Position numbers and translations under genes: made by a program. Under the pieces are notes generated by a model. That model was not told where the DNA came from and ran no database searches. It was given only the letters and a program-made list of their open reading frames with translations. From an uncultured Chromatiales bacterium (lineage in GTDB: Bacteria > Bacteroidota > Ignavibacteria > SZUA-365): 64,000 nucleotides of DNA. The stretch covers positions 131,089-195,088 of the forward strand of contig CAYLZD010000002.1 in the NCBI GenBank assembly GCA_964388275.1, written 5' to 3'. Below, piece by piece: positions 38,783 to 51,760 of this stretch (its first letter is position 1; each line of letters opens with the position of its first letter).

Positions 38783-40105
38783 TCAATATGCGGACACGAC
38801 ATCTATTCCGGGAAAATAGGCGCGCAATATCTCCGCGGCGTTGTAACCCTTGCGGGCCCGATCGAGAGCTCCGTATTGGCATAAGCCGATCCCATGTCCA
38901 CTGCCGGCGCCGCGCAGAGTGACGGAACTGATCCAGCGATTCTCATCGCGCTTGACTTCCACGGCGAATAGCGAACTTCGCAGAATTCTGTTTCCGTCGG
39001 GTCTGCGCAGAATCCAGCGGATGCGGTCGCCTCCGAGTGTGAGCACATGATGGCGGGTTTTGTTCCCAAGCACTATGTTCAATTGCGCGACCCGGCCCGA
39101 AGGCATGCGTTTCAACACGCGCAAATCGAGCAGATGCAATCCGCTTTTCATGCTCGCTTGAAAAGGAAGTGAGTCGCTCGCCGAAGGCAGGTATGTGAAC
39201 AGCAACTCCTCGAGTTCTCTGCGGGACCATGTTTCCGTCCAGCGGTAGGAAGGCGATTTCGAACAGTAATCGCCGTGCCTGCCCGCGTCGCGAATGCCCG
39301 TCAGGTAAGGTTTCGATTGAGGCCTGCCCCAAGCAAGCGACACGGCCTCAGTCGCCCCGCCGCAGGTGGAATGGTAGTAACATTCGGCGTATCTGCCTCC
39401 GTAACCTGCCGCGAGGCCGGTGGTTTCGCGCACGGCGCGCGAAGTAACGGGCGACACGGTGGCAAGGCCGGAATAGACTTGATCCCGCGTGTCCGAATGA
39501 ACATCGAAAAGCCGGGCGAGAGGCGACTCGGTTTTACGCAGCGCATACGTGCGGGCGAGAATGGCTTGCGCCTTTACCGCTTCGAGTTCATCGGCGGATC
39601 GGTCGGGACCGATTTCATTCGGCACGACGCCGAGCACGTAAGTCTCCATCGGCACAACATTGAGCAGTGAAAATCCCCGCGAATCCCTGACAATGAGCAT
39701 GGTGTCCGGATAGCGGCGGCCCGAAAGAGTGAAATAGCGGCCGGCCGCGTGATGGAAACACCGCACGGTCTCGCCCGTCAACAGGTCCATACGCCCGACT
39801 CTGACATCCAGTCCGCCGGCTTCGTTCAGGGAACAGACGAGCGCAGCGGAATCCGCGGTCGTGTAGCGCTTGGCGCCTGTTTCGATCACGGCGCCCGCTT
39901 GCAGGCCCAAGACGATGCTCTTTACGCCCTCGGCCAGACAGACTCTTACATTGGGTCCGCCGGAAGCGGGAAGGGATCGTTCAGGCGGACCCGAGCAGGA
40001 GACGGCCGACCACATCGCCGCCGCCATTGTGGCCGCCGCGCAGAAAGTCTTCAACGGATTCTTGCCTGCTATTGGAACGCGCGCGAATCTTCTATGGCAG
40101 GACAT
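38783..40105 (-). CDS. SpoIID/LytB-domain protein (peptidoglycan lytic transglycosylase-like)
   Basis: Hallmark C-terminal SpoIID motif GHGIGLCQYGA plus a conserved central region. N-terminal signal sequence. Confidence 0.8.
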   Translation of the reverse strand: MSCHRRFARVPIAGKNPLKTFCAAATMAAAMWSAVSCSGPPERSLPASGGPNVRVCLAEGVKSIVLGLQAGAVIETGAKRYTTADSAALVCSLNEAGGLDVRVGRMDLLTGETVRCFHHAAGRYFTLSGRRYPDTMLIVRDSRGFSLLNVVPMETYVLGVVPNEIGPDRSADELEAVKAQAILARTYALRKTESPLARLFDVHSDTRDQVYSGLATVSPVTSRAVRETTGLAAGYGGRYAECYYHSTCGGATEAVSLAWGRPQSKPYLTGIRDAGRHGDYCSKSPSYRWTETWSRRELEELLFTYLPSASDSLPFQASMKSGLHLLDLRVLKRMPSGRVAQLNIVLGNKTRHHVLTLGGDRIRWILRRPDGNRILRSSLFAVEVKRDENRWISSVTLRGAGSGHGIGLCQYGALDRARKGYNAAEILRAYFPGIDVVSAY

Positions 40106-40181
40106 GGCGCCTGTTCTCCGAAGCGCGAAAAAAAAAGCCCACCGCACGGTGTGCTCGCTCGACACGCTCCGGAAACCTCCG

Positions 40182-40583
40182 CTAACGGAACATGGCCTTG
40201 ATGCTGCCCCATGTGCGCTTGACACTGCTGACGCTGTGCGTCACAGGAACATCCTGCGAAAAAGAAGCCGTCCCGCCGCTTTCAACGATGCGCAGGCGGT
40301 ATACGTAAACGTTGTCGCTGGTTTTGTAGGCGGTTCGATCGGTATACGAATAGAACGCACCCTCGTCCTTCGGCTGCACCTCGCCGATCGTGATGAATTC
40401 CCCGTTCCATCCGGCTTTCCTCTGAATCTCGAACGCGACCAGATTGCTTTCGCTCCGGGTTTTCCATTCGAGCGTGATATCCGATCCATCGCTTCTGCCC
40501 TGGAAAAAATCCAGAAAGGCGCCGGCCAAGGCGGCGGCGCTCAAAGCGATGATCAATATCGTATAGCCGAAAATTCTATTCAT
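40182..40583 (-). CDS. Hypothetical small secreted or membrane-anchored protein
   Basis: 133 aa, N-terminal hydrophobic segment, beta-rich, lies upstream of the SpoIID-like gene. No recognised domain. Confidence 0.4.
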   Translation of the reverse strand: MNRIFGYTILIIALSAAALAGAFLDFFQGRSDGSDITLEWKTRSESNLVAFEIQRKAGWNGEFITIGEVQPKDEGAFYSYTDRTAYKTSDNVYVYRLRIVESGGTASFSQDVPVTHSVSSVKRTWGSIKAMFR

Positions 40584-40822: not shown

Positions 40823-43360
40823 ATGAAAACAGTAATCCGATACATGCTCATCTTCACGACGGCAAGCGCGTGCGCGGTTTCACAGGGAAATCCGATTATC
40901 AATGAAATCATGTACGCTCCGGAGCAGGGGAAGTGCGAGTGGATAGAACTGTACAATCCTTGCGGCGACACCATCGATCTCAACGGCTGGATTATTCACG
41001 ATGCCACCACAGCGAGAAATCCGGTCGCGACCGCGCACTTCGCGCTTCCGCCGGGCGCATATGCCGTGGCATGTGCGGACTCCACCCTGATCTCCGATTT
41101 TCCGGAAATGGCGTCGCGCATGACGGTCATGAAGGGATTTCCTTCTCTCAACAATTCCGGTGACGAGCTTTTCCTTCTGGATCCCGACCTGAAACTGAGG
41201 GATTACATCCATTACAGGTCTTCATGGGGAGGGGGCTCCGGCGTTTCCCTGGAGCGCATCGATCCGAACGGTGAAAGCAACTTGAAAGAGAATTGGAAAA
41301 CCGGCATAGCTGCCGAGAAGGCGACTCCCGGACGCAAGAACAGCGTCTCAAAACCGGATCATGACCTCGCGATCGACGCTGTGCGTATCGATCCCGCCAG
41401 GCCCCGCATGGGCGAAACCGCGCGCATCGAAATTCAGGCGCGCAACGGCGGGACGGCGGACGCCGCGGGATTCGGTTTGAAGGTGTATGAGCACTCCGTT
41501 GACGGGGATTCCACCACGCCGGGGCTTCCAATACTGACACTCTCCTCGACTGCGGTTCTCGCCGCATCCGAAACCGCCGTTCTGTCTGGGATCCTGTATC
41601 CTACGGATATGCCGCAACGAAATCTGAGCGCAGTCATTGCTTGTGAAAACGATGAGGACGCCAGGAACGATACGGGAAGGATCGGCTTCAGATATTCCCC
41701 GGCGGCGGGCAGTGTAGTGATCAACGAGATAATGTACGCTCCATTATCCGGCGACCCGGAATGGATCGAGCTATACAATGCCACGGCCCGGAGTGTCAAT
41801 GCGGCGGGATGGTTCATCTGCGACGAGGCGTCGAGCAGGGAGATCGACGCCGGGTCCGGTGCGACCATCCCGCCGTATGGATTCTGCGTATTGTCGGCAT
41901 CCGAGGATATTCTGCGCCGTTATCCGTCCATGCCCGTGACACCGATAATACTGGCGCTCCCGTCCCTGAACAACGGCGGCGATGCTGTGCGCCTTCTCGA
42001 TGATGCCGGCGCGGCCGTTGACAGCATGCGTTACGAATCGGCATGGGGCGGCGGCGACGGGCTTTCCCTTGAACGCGTGAATTTCACCCGGCCATCATCG
42101 TATGCGGCAAACTGGAAGCCCTGCGAGGACCTTTCGGGCGGCACTCCCGGCGCACCGAACAGCGTGCGAGCGCGGGATCGCAATCTGGCCATCGGCACCG
42201 TCCTTATCATGGGAGCCGATGCGGCGGTGACCGTCTTGAATGCGGGCCTTCTGGCTTCCGCCGCCGGTATGCTGTTTCTTTACCACGACAGGGATGGAGA
42301 TGGAAGCCCTTCGCCGCTCGAGGAGATTGCTCGGGCTGAAATCCCGACTCTGGAGAGCGGCGATTCATGCGTGCTCCGCTTCAATGAAACTACAGATGCA
42401 ACAGGAATTATTCGCCTCATCTTCCGGATCGAATACGATGCCGACGAGAGGCCCGGCGATAACATCCGCAGTGTGGAAATGGTCAGAGCGGCGGAACCCG
42501 GCCTGTTCGCAATCAACGAAATAATGTATGCCCCGTTCAGCGGCGAGGCGGAATGGGTGGAATACATTAATCGGTCACCGGCGGCCGTGGATATCGCGGG
42601 TTACAAGCTGGCGCGGGATAAATCAACGGACGGGACGCGGACGACCATTCAGCTTCCCGTAACTCCGACACCGGTGCTACCTGGCGATTACGTAGTCATT
42701 GCCTCGGACAGCGCCTTGTTTGCGCGTTTCAAGTATCTGCTTGAAGGCGGTTCGACGAGCAGGGTGGTAATATTGAACAGAGTCTCGCTGGGCCTGACCG
42801 AGAACGGCGAGTTGCTTCTGTGCGATCCGGCCGGGACCGTGATCGACAGCATGATGTATTCCCCTTCTCTGCATAATCCCAATGTCCATGACACCAGAGG
42901 GAGATCGCTGGAGCGGCTCAACCCGGAATTTCCCCCGATGCTGCGCTCCAACTGGAGCACCTGTCCTGAAACGGAAGGGGGTACGCCGGGGAAGCGCAAT
43001 GCGCTTTTCACCGGACGCCCGCCATGGGAGAGCGGAGGAAAGGCGCGGCTGCTGGCGACCCCGAATCCCTTCTCGCCCGATGGGGACGGTCACGACGATC
43101 ATTGCGTTATCAGTTGGGAATTGCCCGGCTCGGTATCGCAGATTCGTTTGCGGATTTTCGACAGCATAGGCCGCCAGGTCCGAACCGTGGCGTCGAATCA
43201 ACCCTCCGGTCGCGCCGGCCAGCTCCTTTTCGACGGAAACGATGACGGAGGCAGACGTCTGCCTATCGGAGTGTACATCATGCTGCTGGAAGCGGTGGAT
43301 TTTCACGGCGCCGGAATATCCTCCATAAAGGAGGCGCTCGTAATCGCGACACGCCTATAA
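40823..43360 (+). CDS. Large secreted protein with three lamin-tail (LTD) domains and a T9SS type-B C-terminal sorting domain
   Basis: Motif INEIMYAP..G..EWIELYN occurs three times (near aa 25, 295, 565). C-terminus has NPFSPDGDGHDD (type-B sorting/FlgD-Ig-like) signature. Signal peptide present. Confidence 0.7.
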   Translation: MKTVIRYMLIFTTASACAVSQGNPIINEIMYAPEQGKCEWIELYNPCGDTIDLNGWIIHDATTARNPVATAHFALPPGAYAVACADSTLISDFPEMASRMTVMKGFPSLNNSGDELFLLDPDLKLRDYIHYRSSWGGGSGVSLERIDPNGESNLKENWKTGIAAEKATPGRKNSVSKPDHDLAIDAVRIDPARPRMGETARIEIQARNGGTADAAGFGLKVYEHSVDGDSTTPGLPILTLSSTAVLAASETAVLSGILYPTDMPQRNLSAVIACENDEDARNDTGRIGFRYSPAAGSVVINEIMYAPLSGDPEWIELYNATARSVNAAGWFICDEASSREIDAGSGATIPPYGFCVLSASEDILRRYPSMPVTPIILALPSLNNGGDAVRLLDDAGAAVDSMRYESAWGGGDGLSLERVNFTRPSSYAANWKPCEDLSGGTPGAPNSVRARDRNLAIGTVLIMGADAAVTVLNAGLLASAAGMLFLYHDRDGDGSPSPLEEIARAEIPTLESGDSCVLRFNETTDATGIIRLIFRIEYDADERPGDNIRSVEMVRAAEPGLFAINEIMYAPFSGEAEWVEYINRSPAAVDIAGYKLARDKSTDGTRTTIQLPVTPTPVLPGDYVVIASDSALFARFKYLLEGGSTSRVVILNRVSLGLTENGELLLCDPAGTVIDSMMYSPSLHNPNVHDTRGRSLERLNPEFPPMLRSNWSTCPETEGGTPGKRNALFTGRPPWESGGKARLLATPNPFSPDGDGHDDHCVISWELPGSVSQIRLRIFDSIGRQVRTVASNQPSGRAGQLLFDGNDDGGRRLPIGVYIMLLEAVDFHGAGISSIKEALVIATRL

Positions 43361-43436: not shown

Positions 43437-45164
43437 CTACAGTGGGGGCTGATACCGGCCGGCCGCTTCCTGAAGCAGCTCGTTGATCGTGTTCTTGAGT
43501 TCCTCGATCTGGAACGGTTTCGACAGATACCGGTTGCAGCCGGCGGCGAGACAGCGCTGTTTATCCTCCGGAAATGCATGAGCGGTGATGGCTATGACCG
43601 GAATCGGATGGAAGGTTTTATGCTCGCGGATTCGCCGCGTCAGATGTAGTCCGTCTTCATCGCCTCGCAGAGACAGGTCCATCAGTATCAGATCGACGGA
43701 ATTCTGGTTGAGCGCGTCCCAGGCCTCGCTTCCCGAAGTCGCGATCCTTATGTCGTAGTCGCGCTTGAGAAGAACGAGCATGTATTCCTGCGTCTGCTCG
43801 TCGTCCTCCACTATCAGCACGGTTCTGCCGTTCGCAGCGCGGGAGTTGTTTTCGGCATAGGCTGCGGCGGCCGAGTGTTCGACCTGCAGCGGCAGTTCTT
43901 CCTGAAGGCCGTCGGAGGCGGCGGCCGAAAGGAAACGCAGCGTGAAAGTCGTTCCGACGCCCTTCCGGCTCTTGACCGTGATGCTGCCCTGGTTGAATTC
44001 GATATACCTCTTGGTCAGGGCAAGACCCAGTCCCAGTCCTTCGAACGGCCTCGTATATCCGATGATTTCCTGTGAAAACACATTGAACACCCGAGGCAGA
44101 TACTCCGCGCTGATGCCTATGCCAGTGTCGGACACTTCTATGCAGACGCGTCTGTCCTGACGGTACGTGCGGACTTTAACGCCGCCGCGGTTGGTGAACT
44201 TGATCGCATTGTCGATCAGGTTTGTGAGCGCCTGGTCGAGACAGTAGCGGTCGGCGATAATCAGAGCGCCGGGGTATTCGTTCAGCGTTGTGAGCGTGAG
44301 TCCTTTCTCCGCCGCTATGGAGCGCAGATCCATTATCAGGGTTTCGACCCGGTCGTTGACGTCGATCGGTTCCGGGTGGAGTTCGAAGGTTCCGGCCTGT
44401 ATGCTCGAAATGTTGAGTATATGCTCAACCGTGCGCATGAGACGCTGGCCGCCGCGCTCTATGCTTTCGAAGAAAGTCAGTTCCTCGGCCTTGATCCGGT
44501 CGGACATCTCCGCCATGATCAGCGAGGAGTAGCCGAGAATGACGTTGAGAGGAGTCCTGATTTCGTGCGAAATGTTCGCTATGAAAGCATCCTTCAGCCG
44601 GTCCGATTGCTCGGCGCGTTCCTTGGCTGTGATGAGTTCGAGTTCCTGCCGCTTGCGTTCGGTGATATCCCTGATCATGACCTGAACCGCCTCCTCCCCG
44701 TCGTAGGTTATCGGGATGGCGGTAACCTCGATGTCGATAACCTGACCGTCGTAGCGGACAAATTTTTCCTCGATAAAAGACAGTTCGCCGGGATGGCTCA
44801 GAAATTCGGTTATGCGGCTCTTCGCATGTTCGTAGAAGGCGGTGCGGCCGTATTCCTCCAGTTGTTTGCCGATCAATTCGTCGGGATTCATGGCGCCGAA
44901 CAGTTTGGCGCCGGCGTCGTTGACGTAGCGGAACTCGCCTTCGATGAGCACCGCCATCGGGAAAGGAGAGAAATTGACGAGGCGGCGGTATCTCTCCTCG
45001 CTTTCGGTAAGGACTTCCAGATTCTTCTGCTGTATGGCGAACACGCGCCTCTGCTGCACCAGCACTATCACGATAATGCCCACGACAAGCACCAGCGCCG
45101 TGACGACGCCCGAGATTATCGCGACGGCTTCCGTCAATATGCCGGCTAATGCGAGAGTGTCCAC
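43437..45164 (-). CDS. Hybrid sensor histidine kinase/response regulator (TM-PAS-HisKA-HATPase-REC)
   Basis: TM helix, PAS (NPDELIGKQLEEY..), HisKA (FIANISHEIRTPLN), HATPase (N, G1, G2 boxes), C-terminal receiver (LIVEDDE...LILMDLSL...SKPF). No in-frame ATG near the domain start, so start assigned to GTG 45164. Confidence 0.8.
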   Translation of the reverse strand: MDTLALAGILTEAVAIISGVVTALVLVVGIIVIVLVQQRRVFAIQQKNLEVLTESEERYRRLVNFSPFPMAVLIEGEFRYVNDAGAKLFGAMNPDELIGKQLEEYGRTAFYEHAKSRITEFLSHPGELSFIEEKFVRYDGQVIDIEVTAIPITYDGEEAVQVMIRDITERKRQELELITAKERAEQSDRLKDAFIANISHEIRTPLNVILGYSSLIMAEMSDRIKAEELTFFESIERGGQRLMRTVEHILNISSIQAGTFELHPEPIDVNDRVETLIMDLRSIAAEKGLTLTTLNEYPGALIIADRYCLDQALTNLIDNAIKFTNRGGVKVRTYRQDRRVCIEVSDTGIGISAEYLPRVFNVFSQEIIGYTRPFEGLGLGLALTKRYIEFNQGSITVKSRKGVGTTFTLRFLSAAASDGLQEELPLQVEHSAAAAYAENNSRAANGRTVLIVEDDEQTQEYMLVLLKRDYDIRIATSGSEAWDALNQNSVDLILMDLSLRGDEDGLHLTRRIREHKTFHPIPVIAITAHAFPEDKQRCLAAGCNRYLSKPFQIEELKNTINELLQEAAGRYQPPL

Positions 45165-45898
45165 CGCCTGTGCTCGCTGTAGAATGAGTATGCGTAAATC
45201 AGATTCGCCGTGACGCCGAGCATCGAGTGTATGCTCCAGATCAGGTCGAGTTCGCTGTAATCCCCGCTCAGAATGACGTTCGCCAGAGCAAAAATTATCA
45301 GGTTTCCCGAGAAATAGATCATCACGGCTGAAACCACCCAGAAACGGGGATTGCGGAAAATGCCCATGATGTCTTCGGATGTCAATCTTATCAGGGTCAG
45401 CACCGACACTGCTACCAGCACCACGCTCTCGAAAGTCGCGGCGTAGCTGTCGAATCGGGGGTCCCGTTCCGGATTGATCACCTTTACGAGCACCCACACC
45501 ACCACGAAAGCCGGCACGCTGAAAGCTATGAAATATCTCCACTTCGGGCGGTTCTGCCACAGCGCGAAGATCAGCATCAGCAGTCCGAATTCAAAAAGCG
45601 TGTATATGTTGAACGGCCAGTAGTTGTTCCATTTATGCGCTGAAAGCACAACGGAAATCGCTTCAACGACCACCGCCATGGCGATGAGCGTGAGCAACAA
45701 CTTGAATTCGAGTGAGAGTGACTTACCGAACCAGAGACCGACGAATAGAGGAATGATTCCGGTGAAAGCGGTATAGCGGAGTATCAGGGGAACTTCCGAC
45801 GAGGAAGAAGGAAAAAAGTACTCAGCCCCGGGAAGCAGGAGTATGCTGACGAAAGCCAGTACGCGGAACAGGATTTGAGAATTGCGCTCGTGTGCCAA
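45146..45898 (-). CDS. Polytopic (7-8 TM) membrane protein directly upstream of and overlapping the hybrid kinase
   Basis: 250 aa, almost entirely hydrophobic helices. Stop lies inside the kinase 5' end. Confidence 0.55.
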   Translation of the reverse strand: MAHERNSQILFRVLAFVSILLLPGAEYFFPSSSSEVPLILRYTAFTGIIPLFVGLWFGKSLSLEFKLLLTLIAMAVVVEAISVVLSAHKWNNYWPFNIYTLFEFGLLMLIFALWQNRPKWRYFIAFSVPAFVVVWVLVKVINPERDPRFDSYAATFESVVLVAVSVLTLIRLTSEDIMGIFRNPRFWVVSAVMIYFSGNLIIFALANVILSGDYSELDLIWSIHSMLGVTANLIYAYSFYSEHRRWTLSH

Positions 45899-45985
45899 AG
45901 TTCAACGCTTCCCTCCCGCGGGAGGTCTTTTAAAAGGGTGGATGTGGACGAAACCCGCTCTGTAGTGGCCTGTCAGGCCGCGTCA

Positions 45986-46077: not shown

Positions 46078-46485
46078 CTAGCTGTTCAGTTCGTTGAAGA
46101 AACCGCAATACGGCGGACACGGGACCGAGCGCTCGAGTATGAATCCCTCGATCAGATCGTTGCCCGTCGCGTCCACACCCACAAGCACGAGCACCGGACG
46201 TCCGTCGTTTTCCTGTCCATAGTAGTAGCGGATCCCGACAACCCCTTCCTGGTCCAGCAACTGCTGCAGCGCTGCCTGGCCGAAGAAGCCGCCCTTTATG
46301 GCGTTCTTGCCTGCGCGCTCGCGGAAGTTGCGAGTCAATGCAGCCGCGTCTCCGAGCATGATGTCGTGATCCTCGTTGCCTGTGAACATCGGACGGCGAC
46401 GCTCACGGATCTCCGGCTTCGCCGGCGCGACGGGGATGTCTACGAAAGACTCAAGAGTCTGGGGGTTGATAGTTGTGGTTTCCAT
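46078..46485 (-). CDS. Unknown-family small protein, tandem paralog A (C-terminal VPCPPYCGFFNELNS)
   Basis: 135 aa, soluble, ~97% identical in protein to paralog B but ~90% in DNA, with mostly synonymous differences. Confidence 0.6.
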   Translation of the reverse strand: METTTINPQTLESFVDIPVAPAKPEIRERRRPMFTGNEDHDIMLGDAAALTRNFRERAGKNAIKGGFFGQAALQQLLDQEGVVGIRYYYGQENDGRPVLVLVGVDATGNDLIEGFILERSVPCPPYCGFFNELNS

Positions 46486-46556
46486 GACGATCTCCTGTAA
46501 AAAGCTTGGCGTTGAAAATTCTGTAATCGAAGGTCGGGGTTTGCGATGAGTGCCGA

Positions 46557-46961
46557 TCAACTGTTGAGTTCGTTGAAGAAGCCGCAATATGGCGGACACG
46601 GGACCGAACGCTCGAGTATGAAGCCCTCGATCAGGTCGTTGCCCGTCGCGTCCACACCCACAAGCACGAGCACCGGACGGCCGTCGTTTTCCTGGCCGTA
46701 GTAGTAACGGATTCCGACTACTCCCTCCTGGTCCAATAGCTGCTGCAATGCGGCCTGTCCGAAAAATCCTCCCTTGATGGCATTTTTGCCTGCGCGCTCG
46801 CGGAAATTGCGAGTCAATGACGCGGCATCTCCGAGCATGATGTCGTGATCCTCGTTGCCTGTGAACATCGGACGGCGACGCTCGCGGATTTCCGGTTTGG
46901 CCGGCGCAACGGGCACGTCGACGAAAGACTCGAGGGTCTGAAGGTTGATTGTGGTTTCCAT
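46557..46961 (-). CDS. Unknown-family small protein, tandem paralog B
   Basis: 134 aa, same family as paralog A. Head-to-tail duplication with a ~476-bp period. Each copy has its own AGGAG-like site upstream. Confidence 0.6.
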   Translation of the reverse strand: METTINLQTLESFVDVPVAPAKPEIRERRRPMFTGNEDHDIMLGDAASLTRNFRERAGKNAIKGGFFGQAALQQLLDQEGVVGIRYYYGQENDGRPVLVLVGVDATGNDLIEGFILERSVPCPPYCGFFNELNS

Positions 46962-47430: not shown

Positions 47431-48258
47431 ATGGAAAAGGTTTCTGTCGTAGACGTGTTGCCGGGACCGATCCCGGTTCTCGAGGCACTGCGGGATACAT
47501 GGAGCAGACGCGAGCTCGTAATTCTGCTGGCCGTCAGGGATATAAAGGTGCGATTCAAACAGACTCTGCTGGGTGTCGCTTGGGCGATCATCAGGCCCGT
47601 GGTCGCGACTTTTGTCTTTACATTTATCTTCGAGCGGATCGCCGGACTGTCATCACAGGGAGTGCCGTATCCCCTGCTGGCGCTCAGCGGCGTTCTGGCC
47701 TGGAATTTCATGTCCGAGGGCATCAACAGCGGCAGCCACGGGATGCTCAGGCATACAGGACTCATTACCAAGGTCTATTTCCCGAGAGTCATCTTTCCTC
47801 TCGCAGGGATGTTGGGAGGACTTGCGGATCTGACGGTTGCCCTGCTCTGCTATGTGGCAATTGCCGCCGCATACGGTTACGCGCCCGGCGCTTCCGTTTT
47901 GCTGCTGCCGGCGGCCGCGGCATACGGCCTGGTAACGGCTTTCGGAGTGAGTCTCTGGTTCAGCTCTCTCGGTGTACACTACCGGGACGTGTGGCATGCG
48001 CTGCCTTTCGTCTTGCAGATACTATTCTGGATCACGCCTGTCGGGTATGGCGCGCAGATCATACCTGACGAGGTCATGCCGCTTTATTGGTGCAATCCCT
48101 TCGTGTCCGTCATCGAACTTTTCCGCTTCACCCTGCTCGACACCCCCTTCCCGCCCGCGCATCTCATGTTGATCTCGGGATGCGCAGGCCTTCTGCTGCT
48201 TGTAACCGGACTCCGCTTCTTCCAGTGGGCCGAGACCGCTTTCGCTGATGTGATATGA
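47431..48258 (+). CDS. wzm: ABC-2 type polysaccharide/O-antigen export permease
   Basis: 275 aa, 6 TM, ABC-2 family signature region (LGVAWAIIRPVV..). Stop overlaps the ATPase start. Confidence 0.8.
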   Translation: MEKVSVVDVLPGPIPVLEALRDTWSRRELVILLAVRDIKVRFKQTLLGVAWAIIRPVVATFVFTFIFERIAGLSSQGVPYPLLALSGVLAWNFMSEGINSGSHGMLRHTGLITKVYFPRVIFPLAGMLGGLADLTVALLCYVAIAAAYGYAPGASVLLLPAAAAYGLVTAFGVSLWFSSLGVHYRDVWHALPFVLQILFWITPVGYGAQIIPDEVMPLYWCNPFVSVIELFRFTLLDTPFPPAHLMLISGCAGLLLLVTGLRFFQWAETAFADVI

Positions 48259-49526
48259 GCACGCCTGTTATCACTGTCCGCAATCTCGGCAAGCAATATC
48301 TTCTCGGGGAAGACGCATACCCGCTCGGCGGACGCACACTGCGGGATACCGCGGGACGGTTTCTCCAAGGCTTTGCCGGTGGAAATAAAGAGAAAGTGCG
48401 CGCGCAAGGCGCCATCTGGGCGTTGAAAAATGTGACCCTTGAGATACATGATGGCGAAATACTCGGCATAATCGGGAGGAACGGCGCCGGGAAAAGCACT
48501 CTTCTGAAAATTTTATCGCGGATCACGAGGCCCACTCAGGGCGCAGTCCGCGTTGTAGGACGTGTCGCGTCTCTACTCGAGGTGGGCACCGGATTTCACA
48601 GGGAACTCACTGGACGTGAAAATATTTTCCTGAACGGCGCGGTTCTGGGAATGAAGCGCTCCGAAATCAAAGCCTGCTTCGACGAAATCGTGGACTTCGC
48701 AGGCATCGAACGCTTCTTGGACACGCCCGTCAAGAGATACTCGAGCGGCATGTACCTGCGGCTCGCCTTTTCCGTCGCCGCCCACTTGCAGCCTGACATA
48801 CTCCTTGTGGACGAGGTGTTAGCCGTCGGCGATGCGGAATTCCAGAACAAATGCCTGAAGAAAATGCATGACGTCGTCCTGGGCGGACGAACGGTGCTTT
48901 TCGTAAGCCATAACCTGGCCGCCATAAGCCGTCTGTGTCCTTCGTCGATACTTCTGGAAGAGGGCGGTGTGCGCACGGCCGGCCCGACGGACGACGTCAT
49001 ACGCGCATACCTAGGCGCAATCGATACGGCTAGCGCAGTAGTCAATCTCGAACAAAACAAACAGGAAAAGGGGAACGACGGGACTCGGCCCGTCCGTCTC
49101 CGCCGCATCGAACTGGCAAACCCCTACGTCGGAAAATTCGCCGTCAGGTGGCGCGAGCCCTTCAAGTTGAGAATCGAAATCGAGGTCGCTTCAGAAATGA
49201 GGCAGGCCGTATTCGAAGTCAGAATCGACGGGTTGAACGGCGGCTCGATACTCTCGACGTACAGCTCCGATCCGGACGATCGTTCATACGACCTCGATTC
49301 AGGCCGATATGCCCTCAACCTCAGCATCGAAAATCACCTGCAAGCGGGACGCTATTTCCTCACCGTCGGAGGACATAATTCTATCTCCCGCGAGAGATTC
49401 CTCTTCGCTCCGCATGCGGCGGCCTGCGATGTGCTCGATATCCCGTATGAAGCGAAGCGCTATATCGGCAGAGACGTGTGTCTCATAAACGGAGACGCGC
49501 TCTGGTCGACTCCGGAGAAGCTGTGA
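48255..49526 (+). CDS. wzt: ABC transporter ATP-binding protein of the polysaccharide-export type with a ~170-aa C-terminal extension
   Basis: Walker A GRNGAGKST, signature YSSGMYLRLAF, Walker B ILLVDEVLAVGD. Residues ~250-423 form a beta-rich domain as in Wzt glycan-binding domains. Confidence 0.85.
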   Translation: MSTPVITVRNLGKQYLLGEDAYPLGGRTLRDTAGRFLQGFAGGNKEKVRAQGAIWALKNVTLEIHDGEILGIIGRNGAGKSTLLKILSRITRPTQGAVRVVGRVASLLEVGTGFHRELTGRENIFLNGAVLGMKRSEIKACFDEIVDFAGIERFLDTPVKRYSSGMYLRLAFSVAAHLQPDILLVDEVLAVGDAEFQNKCLKKMHDVVLGGRTVLFVSHNLAAISRLCPSSILLEEGGVRTAGPTDDVIRAYLGAIDTASAVVNLEQNKQEKGNDGTRPVRLRRIELANPYVGKFAVRWREPFKLRIEIEVASEMRQAVFEVRIDGLNGGSILSTYSSDPDDRSYDLDSGRYALNLSIENHLQAGRYFLTVGGHNSISRERFLFAPHAAACDVLDIPYEAKRYIGRDVCLINGDALWSTPEKL

Positions 49527-49552
49527 TCGGCCCAGGCGGCATCGAGCACCCG

Positions 49553-50560
49553 ATGGTGAGCGTGCTGATGCCCACACGGGACGCGGAGAATTATGTGGGT
49601 GACGCGATCCGCAGCATATTGCGCCAATCTTTCACGGATTTCGAATTCATAATAATCGACGACGGTTCGGCGGACCGCACACCGGAAGTGGTTGCCGGAT
49701 TCGCGGATTCCAGGATCAGTTTCAGGCGCCATGAGTCGTCGAAGGGCATTTCCGCAAGGCGGAACGAGCTGATCTCCCGGGTATCCGGAAAGTACTTCGC
49801 ATGGATCGACAACGACGACGAGTCTCACCCGCGAAGGCTCGAATTGCAGGTGTCGCTGATGGAGAAGAACCCGTCGGTCGGAGTGTGCGGCACCTGGATG
49901 GAAACTTTCGGGGCGGACGCAGGATACATCCACAAGCACGAATCTTCGCATGATGAACTCCGCTGTCAGGTTCTTTTCGAACCGCCTGTTGCCAGTCCTT
50001 CGTGCATGTTCCGCACAGAATTATTGAAGAGATATCCTGAACCTTATGATCCTTCGTTCGTGTTTGCGGCGGACTACGATCTGATTGCGCGCCTCATCCG
50101 GGCGACGGAATTCGCGAACATTCCCCTCGTGCTACATAGATACAGGCGGCATCCCGGGCAGACTAGCGAGATGCGTCGCGCCGAAATAGGAAAGGAAAGA
50201 CGGGAAGTGCAACGCGCATGTCTCGATGAACTCGGTATCGATTACGCTCAAAACGACCTGGCTCTGCATGACGCAATCTCGACATGGAAATTCCCCCCCG
50301 ATGCCGGTTTCGCGGAAGCGGCGCATGATTGGTTCCTGCGCCTGCTCCAGGCCAACGAGTCGCGCGGACCGCTGAATCCAACCGCGTTCCGGCGCGTTCT
50401 GGCGCGGCGCTTCTTCGCGATGTCGAGCTTCTTCGCGCCCTCCGGAAACGGCTCGCTCTCGCGATTGAGAGCCCTGCCTTTGCATCGCGAAGCCGATGTC
50501 GGGACGAGGGCGAGATTCGTGCAGGCGCTTCGCGGAATTCTGCGCGCAGGCATCCGTTGA
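49553..50560 (+). CDS. Family-2 glycosyltransferase
   Basis: GT-A N-terminus VSVLMPTRDAENYVGDAIRSILRQSFTDFEFIIIDDGSAD, DxD (WIDNDD). Confidence 0.8.
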   Translation: MVSVLMPTRDAENYVGDAIRSILRQSFTDFEFIIIDDGSADRTPEVVAGFADSRISFRRHESSKGISARRNELISRVSGKYFAWIDNDDESHPRRLELQVSLMEKNPSVGVCGTWMETFGADAGYIHKHESSHDELRCQVLFEPPVASPSCMFRTELLKRYPEPYDPSFVFAADYDLIARLIRATEFANIPLVLHRYRRHPGQTSEMRRAEIGKERREVQRACLDELGIDYAQNDLALHDAISTWKFPPDAGFAEAAHDWFLRLLQANESRGPLNPTAFRRVLARRFFAMSSFFAPSGNGSLSRLRALPLHREADVGTRARFVQALRGILRAGIR

Positions 50561-50566
50561 ATTACT

Positions 50567-51760
50567 ATGAGATCGCGAGACAATCCGGCAAACTCCGGAA
50601 AAAGAAACTCGAAGCGCCTGAAAATCGCCGTGTTCGGACGTTATAATGAAGGAGAAATACTCAGCGGACCCGAGAAGGTGGCGAGGCGTGTTTACTCGGA
50701 GCTCTCGGCCTGCGACGAAACCGACATGGTGTTCGTGGAGTATTTCTTCGACGGGAAACGATTCGGAATAAAGCGCAAACTCTTAGGATACGAGAGGCTC
50801 GACAGCGGCGGAGGCGGCGCGGTTCTGCGCCTCGGTCTGCTGCGGATCCCGTTTTTCCTGATGCGGTTCCGCCCCTCGGTAGCGGCGATCGTCACATTCG
50901 AACGCTTCGCCGCGATCGCCCTTCTCTGCTGCGTGCCGGCCGGAATACCTGTCGCATACATCGCCCACGGTATTGTCCGCTTCGAAAACGAGAACTTTCG
51001 CAAGGGAATTCCCGCCGGTTTGCGCCGCAGGGATTCGCTGGTCGAACGCCTGCTGTTCAAATATTCGTCCGTCGTCTTCCTCCTCTCCGAACAAAGCCTG
51101 CAACTCGCGCGCTCGTTTTACCGGGTACCGGACCATCGCTGCCGCTTCGCCGACAACGGCGTGGACGCGGTATTCGGCGGGATTTCACGAGCGCTGCCCG
51201 GAAAGGAACGGCTGTTCACCGCCGTCTTCACCGGAGATCCTTCCAGACCCGAGAAGGGATGGTCTTTTCTCCTGGAAGCTTTATCGCATTTAGAGGCGCC
51301 GTTGCGTCTTTTCGTTACGACACTCGGAATGCCGGATGCGACGCTGTCGACGCGCATCGAACTCGTTCAACACCCGCCTATGACTCCCTCCGATCTCGCC
51401 GCCGCCTATGCCGAAGCTGACCTTGTGATCTGCTCCGGCTCGTACGAACCGTTCTCGATTGCGACGGCGGAAGCGATGGCCGCGGGCCTCCCCGCCGTGG
51501 TCACCAGCACGAGCGGCATCGCGCGTCATATACGCGAAGGATATAATGGCTTCACCGTGGATTACGGCGACTCCCGGAAATTGGCATCGATTATCGATAC
51601 ATTCCGCTCCGATACCGAACTGCTCCGGCGCATGTCGGCGAACGCGCGCCTCATCGGAACCGAGCTTTCGTGGTCCGCGGTCGCCGGACGCTACCTCAAG
51701 GAGTTCAAAGAGCTTTCAGAGCGAAAACGAAATGCAGGAAGAAGGGGTCTTAAAAAATGA
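50567..51760 (+). CDS. Family-4 (GT-B, group 1) glycosyltransferase
   Basis: C-terminal EPFSIATAEAMAAGLPAVVTSTSG...GYNGF motif of GT4. Confidence 0.8.
   Translation: MRSRDNPANSGKRNSKRLKIAVFGRYNEGEILSGPEKVARRVYSELSACDETDMVFVEYFFDGKRFGIKRKLLGYERLDSGGGGAVLRLGLLRIPFFLMRFRPSVAAIVTFERFAAIALLCCVPAGIPVAYIAHGIVRFENENFRKGIPAGLRRRDSLVERLLFKYSSVVFLLSEQSLQLARSFYRVPDHRCRFADNGVDAVFGGISRALPGKERLFTAVFTGDPSRPEKGWSFLLEALSHLEAPLRLFVTTLGMPDATLSTRIELVQHPPMTPSDLAAAYAEADLVICSGSYEPFSIATAEAMAAGLPAVVTSTSGIARHIREGYNGFTVDYGDSRKLASIIDTFRSDTELLRRMSANARLIGTELSWSAVAGRYLKEFKELSERKRNAGRRGLKK

What the first reader, a model, noticed from the sequence alone, without database searches (positions are those of the whole stretch)
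43437..45898. 7-8 TM membrane gene overlapping a hybrid histidine kinase that lacks an ATG start: possible split or unconventional 7TM-receptor kinase
The 250-aa polytopic membrane ORF ends 18 nt inside the best start (GTG 45164) of a TM-PAS-HisKA-HATPase-REC hybrid kinase. The kinase reading frame stays open for ~130 codons upstream with no ATG. The layout resembles 7TMR-DISM-type sensors, where a 7TM module sits N-terminal to a kinase. Here the two parts are in different frames. This could be a programmed or accidental frameshift, or two tightly coupled genes.
Basis: partly seen in the sequence, partly recalled or inferred. Interest (0 to 1): 0.55.

Follow-up and report, generated by a model that had tools for sequence, protein, structure and literature searches.

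The report
Membrane sensor gene coupled to kinase
These are two intact, overlapping genes rather than a broken fusion: an eight-helix membrane protein from a large unnamed family that almost always sits directly upstream of a single-helix histidine kinase, so the pair probably works as a two-piece membrane sensor.

Summary
On the minus strand, a 250-aa polytopic membrane ORF (45898..45146) ends 19 nt inside a TM-PAS-HisKA-HATPase-REC hybrid kinase (GTG 45164..43437). The kinase frame is open for 142 codons upstream with no ATG.

The frameshift or broken-fusion reading is rejected:
- Every orthologous locus has two genes in different frames.
- The closest ortholog has the same 19-nt overlap, with ATG where the window has GTG and TTG.
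- The long open frame is not conserved (6-46 codons elsewhere), and its substitution pattern is non-coding.
- The membrane protein's C-terminus is cytoplasmic and the kinase's anchor helix runs from outside to inside, so a direct fusion would be topologically wrong.
- No significant match to 7TMR-DISM or any Pfam or NCBIfam model.

The "two tightly coupled genes" reading is supported and extends well beyond this locus. The membrane protein belongs to a large unannotated family, with 4079 representatives and a 7-TM core. Every genome locus found lies in the Bacteroidota/Ignavibacteria group of phyla. In 39 of 42 genome loci the next gene is a histidine kinase, of two different catalytic classes. 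These kinases share a homologous N-terminal anchor helix.

The likely mechanism is inferred: the membrane protein acts in trans on the kinase through helix-helix contact, as in LiaF-LiaS or sensory rhodopsin with its transducer.

The parts
45146..45898 (-). Gene for a 250-aa polytopic membrane protein: 8 helices, made of a family-wide 7-TM core plus one extra N-terminal helix. TTG start at 45898, TAG stop at 45148-45146.
   Evidence: ORF and translation. AF2 model with 8 long helices, pLDDT 79. The closest ortholog (L055, 252 aa) has ATG at the aligned start column. Homologs are all standalone proteins of 153-285 aa. No Pfam or NCBIfam match.
43437..45164 (-). Gene for a 575-aa hybrid histidine kinase (TM anchor, PAS, HisKA, HATPase_c, REC). 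GTG start at 45164.
   Evidence: Pfam domains. About 50 orthologs at 53-81% identity are 545-581 aa long and none is fused. The closest ortholog P0008 begins MEGIALAG with ATG at the position of the window's GTG (VDTLALAG). H-box SHEIRTPLN, N-box DNAIKFT, G-boxes DTGIGI and GLGLGL, and the receiver Asp in ILMDLSL are readable in the translation.
45146..45164 (-). 19-nt overlap: the kinase start codon lies inside the last codons of the membrane gene, in a different frame. This is the presumed site of translational coupling.
   Evidence: Sequence. The same 19-nt overlap occurs in L055 (5589 against 5607). Other orthologs have 4-nt GTGA overlaps in L001 and L003-L006. In the wider family my start-codon heuristic puts the first in-frame start 22 nt inside the upstream gene in about half of the loci.
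45057..45131 (-). Single N-terminal transmembrane anchor of the kinase (about residues 12-36, EAVAIISGVVTALVLVVGIIVIVLV), followed by QQRR. Proposed docking helix.
   Evidence: Translation. An HMM built from the anchors of 30 HisKA_3-type partner kinases scores this segment 16.5 bits. It scores the hybrid-kinase orthologs at a median of 24 bits, against -2 for core-shuffled controls.
44658..44996 (-). Cytoplasmic PAS domain of the kinase.
   Evidence: Pfam PAS and PAS_9, E 1e-10. Coordinates converted from residues 189-301 of the 707-aa mechanical ORF.
43932..44594 (-). HisKA dimerisation/phospho-acceptor domain and HATPase_c catalytic domain.
   Evidence: Pfam HisKA E 2e-14 and HATPase_c E 4.7e-24.
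43485..43820 (-). C-terminal receiver (REC) domain.
   Evidence: Pfam Response_reg E 1.9e-25.
46078..46961 (-). Two tandem, 98% identical copies of a ~134-aa protein of unknown function (46961..46557 and 46485..46078), directly upstream on the same strand. They are conserved neighbours of this gene pair.
   Evidence: ORFs. One to four copies sit upstream of the pair in L055, L056 and L058. The 45 homologs share contigs with the kinase orthologs. No Pfam, NCBIfam or PDB match.
40823..43360 (+). Convergent gene for an 845-aa protein with three lamin-tail domains and a type IX secretion C-terminal signal. Conserved neighbour.
   Evidence: Pfam LTD x3, CHU_C and FlgD_ig. Same position and orientation in L001, L055, L056 and L058.

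Best explanation
The window carries two separate genes that are translated as a coupled pair. The upstream gene encodes an 8-helix membrane protein with its C-terminus in the cytoplasm. The downstream gene encodes a hybrid histidine kinase whose only membrane element is one N-terminal helix, oriented from outside to inside, with almost no exposed loop. The kinase start (GTG 45164) lies 19 nt inside the end of the membrane gene, so ribosomes finishing the first gene probably restart on the second. That would keep the two proteins in a fixed ratio.

The membrane protein belongs to a large unnamed 7-TM family in Bacteroidota, Ignavibacteria and related phyla. Its members are almost always followed by such a single-helix kinase.

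The proposed mechanism is that the membrane protein is the signal-perceiving or signal-gating module. It would act in trans on the kinase by packing against the kinase's anchor helix. The kinase's PAS domain, catalytic core and receiver would then carry the phosphorelay.

Shown: gene structure, start codons, conservation of the two-gene layout, the family-wide link to kinases, and the shared anchor helix. Inferred: physical contact, the direction of control (activation or inhibition), translational coupling, and the signal.
For: Two genes, not one:
- All orthologous loci have a standalone membrane gene followed by a 556-570-aa kinase in another frame (L001, L003-L006, L055, L056, L058).
- The closest ortholog, L055 (kinase 81% identical), keeps the identical 19-nt overlap. 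It has ATG at both start positions.
- None of about 50 kinase orthologs, the best 150 membrane-family representatives or 45 genome loci is fused.

The upstream open frame is not coding:
- It is 142 codons here and 46, 7, 7, 35, 6 and 40 in the orthologs.
- Between the window and L055, substitutions in that stretch fall 57/30/77 on membrane-frame codon positions 1/2/3. The kinase frame's third position is therefore the least variable.

Topology:
- Summed mean K+R counts are 7.2 in loops 2-3, 4-5, 6-7 and the C-terminus, against 2.8 in the other loops.
- The kinase helix is followed by QQRR.

Functional link:
- The family has 4079 representatives at E<=1e-3.
- 39 of 42 downstream ORFs carry HATPase_c; 33 carry HisKA_3 and 5 carry HisKA plus REC.
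- One locus shows 7TM, kinase and a REC-GerE regulator in a row.
- The anchor helix is homologous across the two kinase classes. Its median score is 24 bits, against -2 for core-shuffled controls (95th percentile 7.8).
- The HisKA_3 partners have no other sensory domain.
Against: No experiment or complex model shows that the two proteins touch, and AlphaFold multimer was not available. The window's kinase has its own cytoplasmic PAS domain, which could be the real sensor. In one sub-branch (L013, L015, L018, L056) the two genes are about 170-200 nt apart, so overlap and coupling are not universal. One family member (L019) has no kinase next to it. The anchor-helix similarity was measured on small sets and against shuffles, not against unrelated natural anchor helices. 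The start-codon choice between GTG 45164 and TTG 45137 rests on alignment. TTG 45137 aligns with the GTG starts of the L001, L003 and L005 group.
Confidence: 0.7

Rival explanations
1. The two ORFs are one gene for a fused 7TM-receptor kinase, broken by an assembly or sequencing indel, or by a recent mutation. Alternatively they are joined at translation by programmed ribosomal frameshifting.
For: The kinase frame is open for 142 codons upstream of its start with no ATG, and the ORFs overlap in different frames. Fused 7TM-kinase sensors exist in other families (general knowledge: 7TMR-DISM, LytS/BtsS; one search lists the BtsS paper).
Against: Independent assemblies and orthologs all show two genes. 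The identical 19-nt overlap with an ATG start occurs in L055. Overlap length varies (4, 19, 22 nt, or gaps of about 200 nt), so there is no conserved shift site. By eye, the overlap GTGGACACTCTCGCATTAG contains no slippery heptamer. The open frame is not conserved and has a non-coding substitution pattern. A fusion would put a ninth helix after a cytoplasmic C-terminus and so place the kinase outside the cell. No fused relative was seen.
Confidence: 0.02
2. The membrane protein is not the sensor. It is an inhibitor, scaffold or stabiliser of the kinase, as LiaF is for LiaS or VraT for VraS. The signal is read by the kinase's own PAS domain or by the membrane itself.
For: The window's kinase has a cytoplasmic PAS domain. 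The gene order of membrane protein, HisKA_3 kinase and NarL-type regulator in L007 mirrors liaFSR and vraTSR (papers listed: PMC3543457, bioRxiv 10.1101/2025.01.23.634444).
Against: Most partner kinases (33 of 42) are bare anchor, HisKA_3 and HATPase proteins with no sensory domain of their own. The 7-TM core keeps invariant or near-invariant polar residues in its helices (E103, H224, Y195, and E157 in the closer set). That pattern suggests a binding site rather than a passive scaffold. Neither point excludes an inhibitory role.
Confidence: 0.2
3. The adjacency is only operon economy. The membrane protein is a transporter, enzyme or envelope component that is co-expressed with, or regulated by, the kinase but does not signal to it.
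For: The neighbourhood is rich in envelope and polysaccharide genes: Wzm/Wzt-type ABC exporter, glycosyltransferases, SpoIID, and a T9SS-secreted LTD protein. The weak fold matches are to generic 7-helix bundles only.
Against: The link to kinases holds across at least two kinase classes and several phyla, while the other neighbours change. The kinases keep a homologous anchor helix wherever this family is upstream. There is no similarity to any transporter or enzyme family.
Confidence: 0.08

Closest known systems
LiaFSR / VraTSR three-component systems of Firmicutes
   Same: A polytopic membrane protein is encoded directly upstream of a histidine kinase that has minimal membrane or extracellular parts. 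In the wider family the order is membrane protein, HisKA_3 kinase, NarL/GerE-type regulator. The accessory protein controls the kinase in trans (PMC3543457; bioRxiv 10.1101/2025.01.23.634444).
   Different: No sequence relation was found. From general knowledge, LiaF has a cytoplasmic C-terminal domain and fewer helices, and LiaS has two TM helices. Here the partner is a compact 7/8-helix bundle and the kinase has one helix. The window's kinase is a PAS-HisKA-REC hybrid, not HisKA_3. All the loci found are in the Bacteroidota/Ignavibacteria group of phyla, not Firmicutes.
Sensory rhodopsin with its Htr transducer (archaea)
   Same: A 7-helix receptor is encoded next to a separate membrane-anchored transducer and signals to it by helix-helix contact in the membrane (general knowledge). 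The AF2 model's best fold matches are rhodopsin- and GPCR-like 7-helix bundles, with TM-score up to 0.60.
   Different: The fold matches are not significant (no hit at E<=1e-3). No Lys is among the invariant or near-invariant columns, so there is no candidate retinal-binding lysine. The partner here is itself the kinase, not a chemotaxis transducer.
7TMR-DISM sensors (Pfam 7TMR-DISM_7TM, PF07695)
   Same: The concept is the same: a 7-helix membrane module upstream of a cytoplasmic signalling module.
   Different: In 7TMR-DISM the module is fused to its output domain. Here it is always a separate gene. Sequence similarity is not significant: 2 of 19 members at E about 1.5. No extracellular DISMED domain is present.
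Other polytopic membrane partners of kinases (SpdC-WalK, BceAB-BceS)
   Same: A multi-helix membrane protein modulates a histidine kinase through membrane contacts (PMC5854430; bioRxiv 10.1101/2020.02.28.969956).
   Different: The protein families are different (Abi/CPBP protease-like, ABC transporter). Those partners are not found across two kinase classes with a shared anchor helix, as seen here.
CbrX-CbrA translational coupling in Pseudomonas putida
   Same: An upstream ORF is translationally coupled to a histidine kinase gene (PMC6591292, abstract).
   Different: I read only the abstract. It concerns CbrX's role in CbrA expression, not a polytopic sensor partner, and the two upstream proteins are unrelated.

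Membership tests
7TMR-DISM_7TM (PF07695) fused 7TM sensors | Significant match to the PF07695 profile | tested here: not met
   No hit for the window protein at E<=1. Among 19 diverse family members only 2 match, with best E 1.5.
7TMR-DISM_7TM (PF07695) fused 7TM sensors | 7TM module and output domain in one polypeptide | tested here: not met
   It is a separate gene in the window and in all orthologs and relatives examined.
7TMR-DISM_7TM (PF07695) fused 7TM sensors | Remote homology by profile-profile comparison | not testable with these tools
Hybrid histidine kinase (two-component phosphorelay) | HisKA with conserved His, HATPase_c with N and G boxes, and a receiver with the phospho-accepting Asp | tested here: met
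   Pfam HisKA 2e-14, HATPase_c 4.7e-24, Response_reg 1.9e-25. The motifs SHEIRTPLN, DNAIKFT, DTGIGI, GLGLGL and ILMDLSL are in the translation.
Accessory-protein-dependent kinases (LiaF-LiaS type 'three-component' systems) | Membrane protein gene conserved immediately upstream of the kinase gene | tested here: met
   39 of 42 downstream ORFs are kinases. Synteny holds in all orthologs.
Accessory-protein-dependent kinases (LiaF-LiaS type 'three-component' systems) | Kinase lacks an extracytoplasmic sensing domain | tested here: met
   There is a single N-terminal helix preceded by about 10-15 residues in the window, its orthologs and the HisKA_3 partners.
Accessory-protein-dependent kinases (LiaF-LiaS type 'three-component' systems) | Sequence homology of the accessory protein to LiaF/VraT (DUF2154-type) | tested here: not met
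   No Pfam or NCBIfam hit of that kind.
Accessory-protein-dependent kinases (LiaF-LiaS type 'three-component' systems) | Physical interaction and control of kinase activity | not testable with these tools
   This needs a multimer model or an experiment.
Microbial rhodopsins | 7-TM bundle with a conserved retinal-binding Lys in the last helix | tested here: not met
   Only weak fold similarity (TM-score at most 0.60, E>0.1). The invariant and near-invariant residues are P50, F186, W187, G198, H224, E103 and Y195, with no Lys among them.

The most novel reading that the evidence does not exclude
The 7-TM family is a previously undescribed, widespread class of bacterial seven-helix receptors, found here in Bacteroidota, Ignavibacteria, Fidelibacterota, Zixibacteria and KSB1. 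It never fuses to its output. It signals in trans through a dedicated, portable anchor helix that has been grafted onto kinases of different catalytic classes. This would be a bacterial counterpart of the sensory-rhodopsin/transducer principle, wired directly to two-component kinases.
Probability: 0.45. Interest if true: 0.7.

Novelty: new variant of a known kind. Interest (0 to 1): 0.5.

Why it matters
For this window the practical result is annotation. These are two genes, with TTG and GTG starts. There is no pseudogene and no frameshift.

The wider result concerns a family with thousands of members that has no Pfam or NCBIfam model. It accounts for the otherwise sensorless single-helix kinases that are common in Bacteroidota and related phyla. 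If the pair is a two-piece sensor, these kinases would gain a candidate input module. There would also be a defined, portable helix-to-bundle interface to study. A cultured organism, Hymenobacter montanus BT664, carries a copy in which this can be tested.

Tried and rejected
- **Known families for the membrane protein.** Pfam and NCBIfam scans of the window protein and 20 or more relatives gave nothing. The only hits were sub-threshold: Cytochrom_B561 at 0.0016 (below the cut-off) and 7TMR-DISM_7TM at E 1.5.
- **Fold search of the membrane protein.** Foldseek of the AF2 model against the PDB found no match at E<=1e-3, only generic GPCR- and rhodopsin-like bundles.
- **First genome scan.** The scan with the 19-sequence alignment failed because no stretch was conserved enough. 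A closer 8-sequence alignment worked.
- **Contig look-ups.** Exact look-ups of the window's own membrane protein and of P0003 found no record.
- **Promoter and terminator scan.** It found only weak consensus matches near chance level, and this lineage may not use sigma-70-type promoters anyway.
- **Literature.** Four full-text searches found no description of the family. One apparent lead, RgzAB of Flavobacterium johnsoniae, is an unrelated GAF-type kinase.
- **Small upstream protein.** Its AF2 model is mediocre (pLDDT 68) and has no fold match.
- **TTG 45137 as the kinase start.** It aligns with the GTG starts of the L001, L003 and L005 orthologs (27 residues before QQRR). I prefer GTG 45164 because the closest ortholog has ATG exactly there.
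Full report
**1. What is in the sequence**

Both ORFs lie on the minus strand. The membrane ORF runs from TTG 45898 to TAG 45148-45146 and encodes 250 aa. The kinase frame contains GTG at 45164, 19 nt before the end of the membrane ORF, and runs to 43437. The two are in different frames.

Upstream of 45164 the kinase frame stays open for 142 codons. Its only start codons there are GTG 45560, 45542 and 45497, with no ATG. TTG 45137 lies 8 nt after the membrane gene's stop.

Pfam finds PAS, HisKA, HATPase_c and Response_reg in the kinase. The translation shows one hydrophobic helix followed by QQRR at the N-terminus, and intact H, N, G and receiver-Asp motifs.

The membrane protein has no Pfam or NCBIfam match. 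Its AlphaFold2 model has eight long helices (pLDDT 79, pTM 0.77).

**2. Is it a broken or frameshifted fusion? No.**

- **Relatives of the membrane ORF are all standalone.** It has few close relatives, and they are 211-264 aa long.
- **Orthologous loci have the same layout.** An Ignavibacteriae MAG (L001), wastewater contigs (L003-L006) and further MAGs (L055, L056, L058) all carry a membrane gene followed by a 556-570-aa PAS-HisKA-HATPase-REC kinase. A convergent lamin-tail-domain/T9SS protein follows where the contig extends far enough.
- **The overlap is conserved as two frames.** In L001, L003 and L005 the genes overlap by 4 nt (GTGA). In L055 the kinase is 81% identical to the window's. 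There the overlap is the same 19 nt as here, and the kinase starts with ATG where the window has GTG (MEGIALAG against VDTLALAG). The membrane gene also starts with ATG where the window has TTG.
- **No fused kinase exists among the orthologs.** All of about 50 kinase orthologs at 53-81% identity are 545-581 aa long, whereas a fusion would be about 810 aa.
- **The open frame upstream of the kinase start is not conserved.** It is 46, 7, 7, 35, 6 and 40 codons in L055, L001, L003, L005, L056 and L058.
- **Such open runs are common in this DNA.** The window is 58.7% G+C and holds 42 alternative-frame runs of at least 130 codons inside long ORFs.
- **The substitution pattern is that of the membrane frame.** Between the window and L055, substitutions in the stretch 45165-45590 fall 57/30/77 on membrane-frame codon positions 1/2/3. 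The third position of the kinase frame is therefore the least variable, the opposite of a coding frame.
- **There is no conserved shift site.** I see no slippery heptamer in the overlap. The overlap length varies among relatives (4, 19, 22 nt, or gaps of about 200 nt), which rules out a conserved frameshift site.

**3. Topology argues against any fusion**

Across 19 family members, Lys and Arg concentrate in loops 2-3, 4-5, 6-7 and the C-terminal tail. The summed mean counts are 7.2 there and 2.8 in the other loops. The C-terminal tail is the most positive segment, at +2.05 net charge. The C-terminus is therefore cytoplasmic.

The kinase helix has a short, often acidic N-terminal stub and QQRR or YQKR on its C-terminal side. 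It therefore runs from outside to inside. Joining the two head to tail would put the catalytic domains outside the cell.

**4. What the membrane protein is**

A profile of the close relatives, searched against 1.84 billion representative proteins, finds 4079 members at E<=1e-3 and 1502 at E<=1e-10. The best 150 are all 153-285 aa long and cover profile positions ~38-253. That is a 7-helix core, and the window protein carries one extra N-terminal helix.

Ten of these representatives, and later 19 diverse members, have no significant Pfam hit. The 7TMR-DISM_7TM model appears only twice, at E 1.5. NCBIfam is also empty.

The invariant or near-invariant residues are P50, E103, F186, W187, Y195, G198 and H224, plus E157 in the closer set. 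Several are polar residues inside helices.

Foldseek against the PDB gives no significant match. The best hits are generic rhodopsin- and GPCR-like bundles, with TM-score up to 0.60. No Lys is among the conserved columns.

**5. The link to kinases is family-wide**

A scan of one genome per species found 45 loci. They lie in Bacteroidota, Ignavibacteria, Fidelibacterota, Zixibacteria and KSB1, and include the cultured Hymenobacter montanus BT664.

In nearly all of them a same-strand ORF starts inside, or just after, the end of the membrane gene. By my start-codon heuristic the start is often 22 nt inside and uses TTG.

| Pfam domain in the downstream ORF | Loci (of 42 tested) |
|---|---|
| HATPase_c | 39 |
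| HisKA_3 | 33 |
| HisKA plus Response_reg | 5 |
| PAS | 9 |

My own HMM check added L041, showed an interposed gene in L023, and left L019 as a true orphan. In L007 the order is 7-TM protein, 268-aa kinase and a REC-GerE regulator.

**6. The kinases share a portable anchor helix**

The partner kinases differ in their catalytic class and cytoplasmic domains. All, however, begin with a short stub and one helix carrying a recurring pattern: hydrophobic residues, then G/S-T/S, then L-x-L, ending in Y/Q-Q-K/R-R.

I built an HMM from the anchors of 30 HisKA_3 partners. It hits 48 of 52 sequences in the hybrid-kinase ortholog set (P0007-P0058) at E<0.03. Among the other 68 PAS kinases returned by the same search, the best E-values are 0.4 or worse.

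Real anchors score a median of 24 bits. Versions with the helix core shuffled score -2, with a 95th percentile of 7.8. The window's anchor scores 16.5 bits. The helix therefore travels with the 7-TM gene, not with the catalytic core. That is what one expects of a docking element.

**7. Most likely mechanism**

*Shown:* there are two genes with weak start codons, and the second start is embedded in the first gene's end. The pairing is near-universal and the anchor helix is shared.

*Inferred:* translation of the kinase is coupled to that of the membrane protein. The two proteins then assemble in the membrane, with the 7/8-helix bundle perceiving or gating a signal. The signal passes to the kinase through the anchor helix. 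In the window's kinase it would then pass through PAS, HisKA/HATPase and REC.

Whether the bundle activates or inhibits the kinase (LiaF-like) is open. So is the identity of the signal.

Precedents for polytopic partners of kinases and for translational coupling were listed by the literature search: LiaFSR, VraTSR, SpdC-WalK, BceAB-BceS and CbrX-CbrA. No paper describing this family was found.

**8. Verdict**

The specific puzzle, a missing ATG and a possible frameshift, is ordinary. These are two overlapping genes with non-ATG starts, and the closest relative has ATG at both positions.

This is a large, unannotated 7-TM family, found here only in Bacteroidota, Ignavibacteria and related phyla, that forms two-gene units with single-helix kinases. 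I rate it a new variant of a known kind (accessory-membrane-protein-dependent kinases) and of moderate interest.

Noticed in passing
window 46078-46961 (minus strand): 46961..46557 and 46485..46078: Two tandem, 98% identical copies of a ~134-aa protein with a conserved C-terminal PCPP(F/Y)C motif and no known family. The same gene, in 1-4 tandem copies, sits upstream of the membrane-gene/kinase pair in orthologous loci. It is more conserved than the membrane protein: 86% against 46% identity to the closest relative. Its AF2 model (pLDDT 68) has no PDB fold match, and its role in the cluster is unknown.
   Followed up: partly
window 40823-43360 (+): An 845-aa protein with three lamin-tail domains, a CARDB-like segment and a type IX secretion C-terminal signal lies convergent to the kinase. 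It keeps this position in L001, L055, L056 and L058. It may be a target of, or functionally linked to, the sensor pair.
   Followed up: partly
L013, L015, L018, L056 (about 170-200 nt between the membrane gene and the kinase): In one sub-branch of the hybrid-kinase group the two genes do not overlap. A spacer of about 170-200 nt separates them, and the kinase starts at GTG or TTG only a few codons after an in-frame stop. What the spacer holds was not examined.
   Followed up: no
window 45912-45925: A perfect palindrome, CCTCCCGCGGGAGG, lies 14-27 nt upstream of the membrane gene's TTG start, in the 180-nt gap after the small-protein genes. On the plus strand it scores as terminator-like because a T-rich tail follows. 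Its function was not tested.
   Followed up: no
L024-L029, L031, L033, L035, L036, L040, L044, L047, L050, L051, L007: In many HisKA_3-type pairs the first in-frame kinase start is a TTG embedded in the conserved G-F-W-K codons at the end of the 7-TM gene, giving a 22-nt overlap. No ATG precedes the anchor helix. Non-ATG starts inside the upstream gene appear to be a habit of the whole family.
   Followed up: partly
window 47431-51760 (+) and 38783-40225 (-): The neighbourhood holds a Wzm/Wzt-type ABC exporter (ABC2_membrane; ABC_tran plus Wzt_C), GT2 and GT4 glycosyltransferases and a SpoIID-domain protein. Similar envelope and polysaccharide genes flank the orthologous loci L055, L056 and L058.
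   Followed up: partly
L058 7819-9318: In one ortholog a second kinase (REC-PAS-HisKA_3-HATPase, 499 aa) is inserted between the hybrid kinase and the LTD gene. It is a possible downstream phosphorelay partner and is absent from the window.
   Followed up: no
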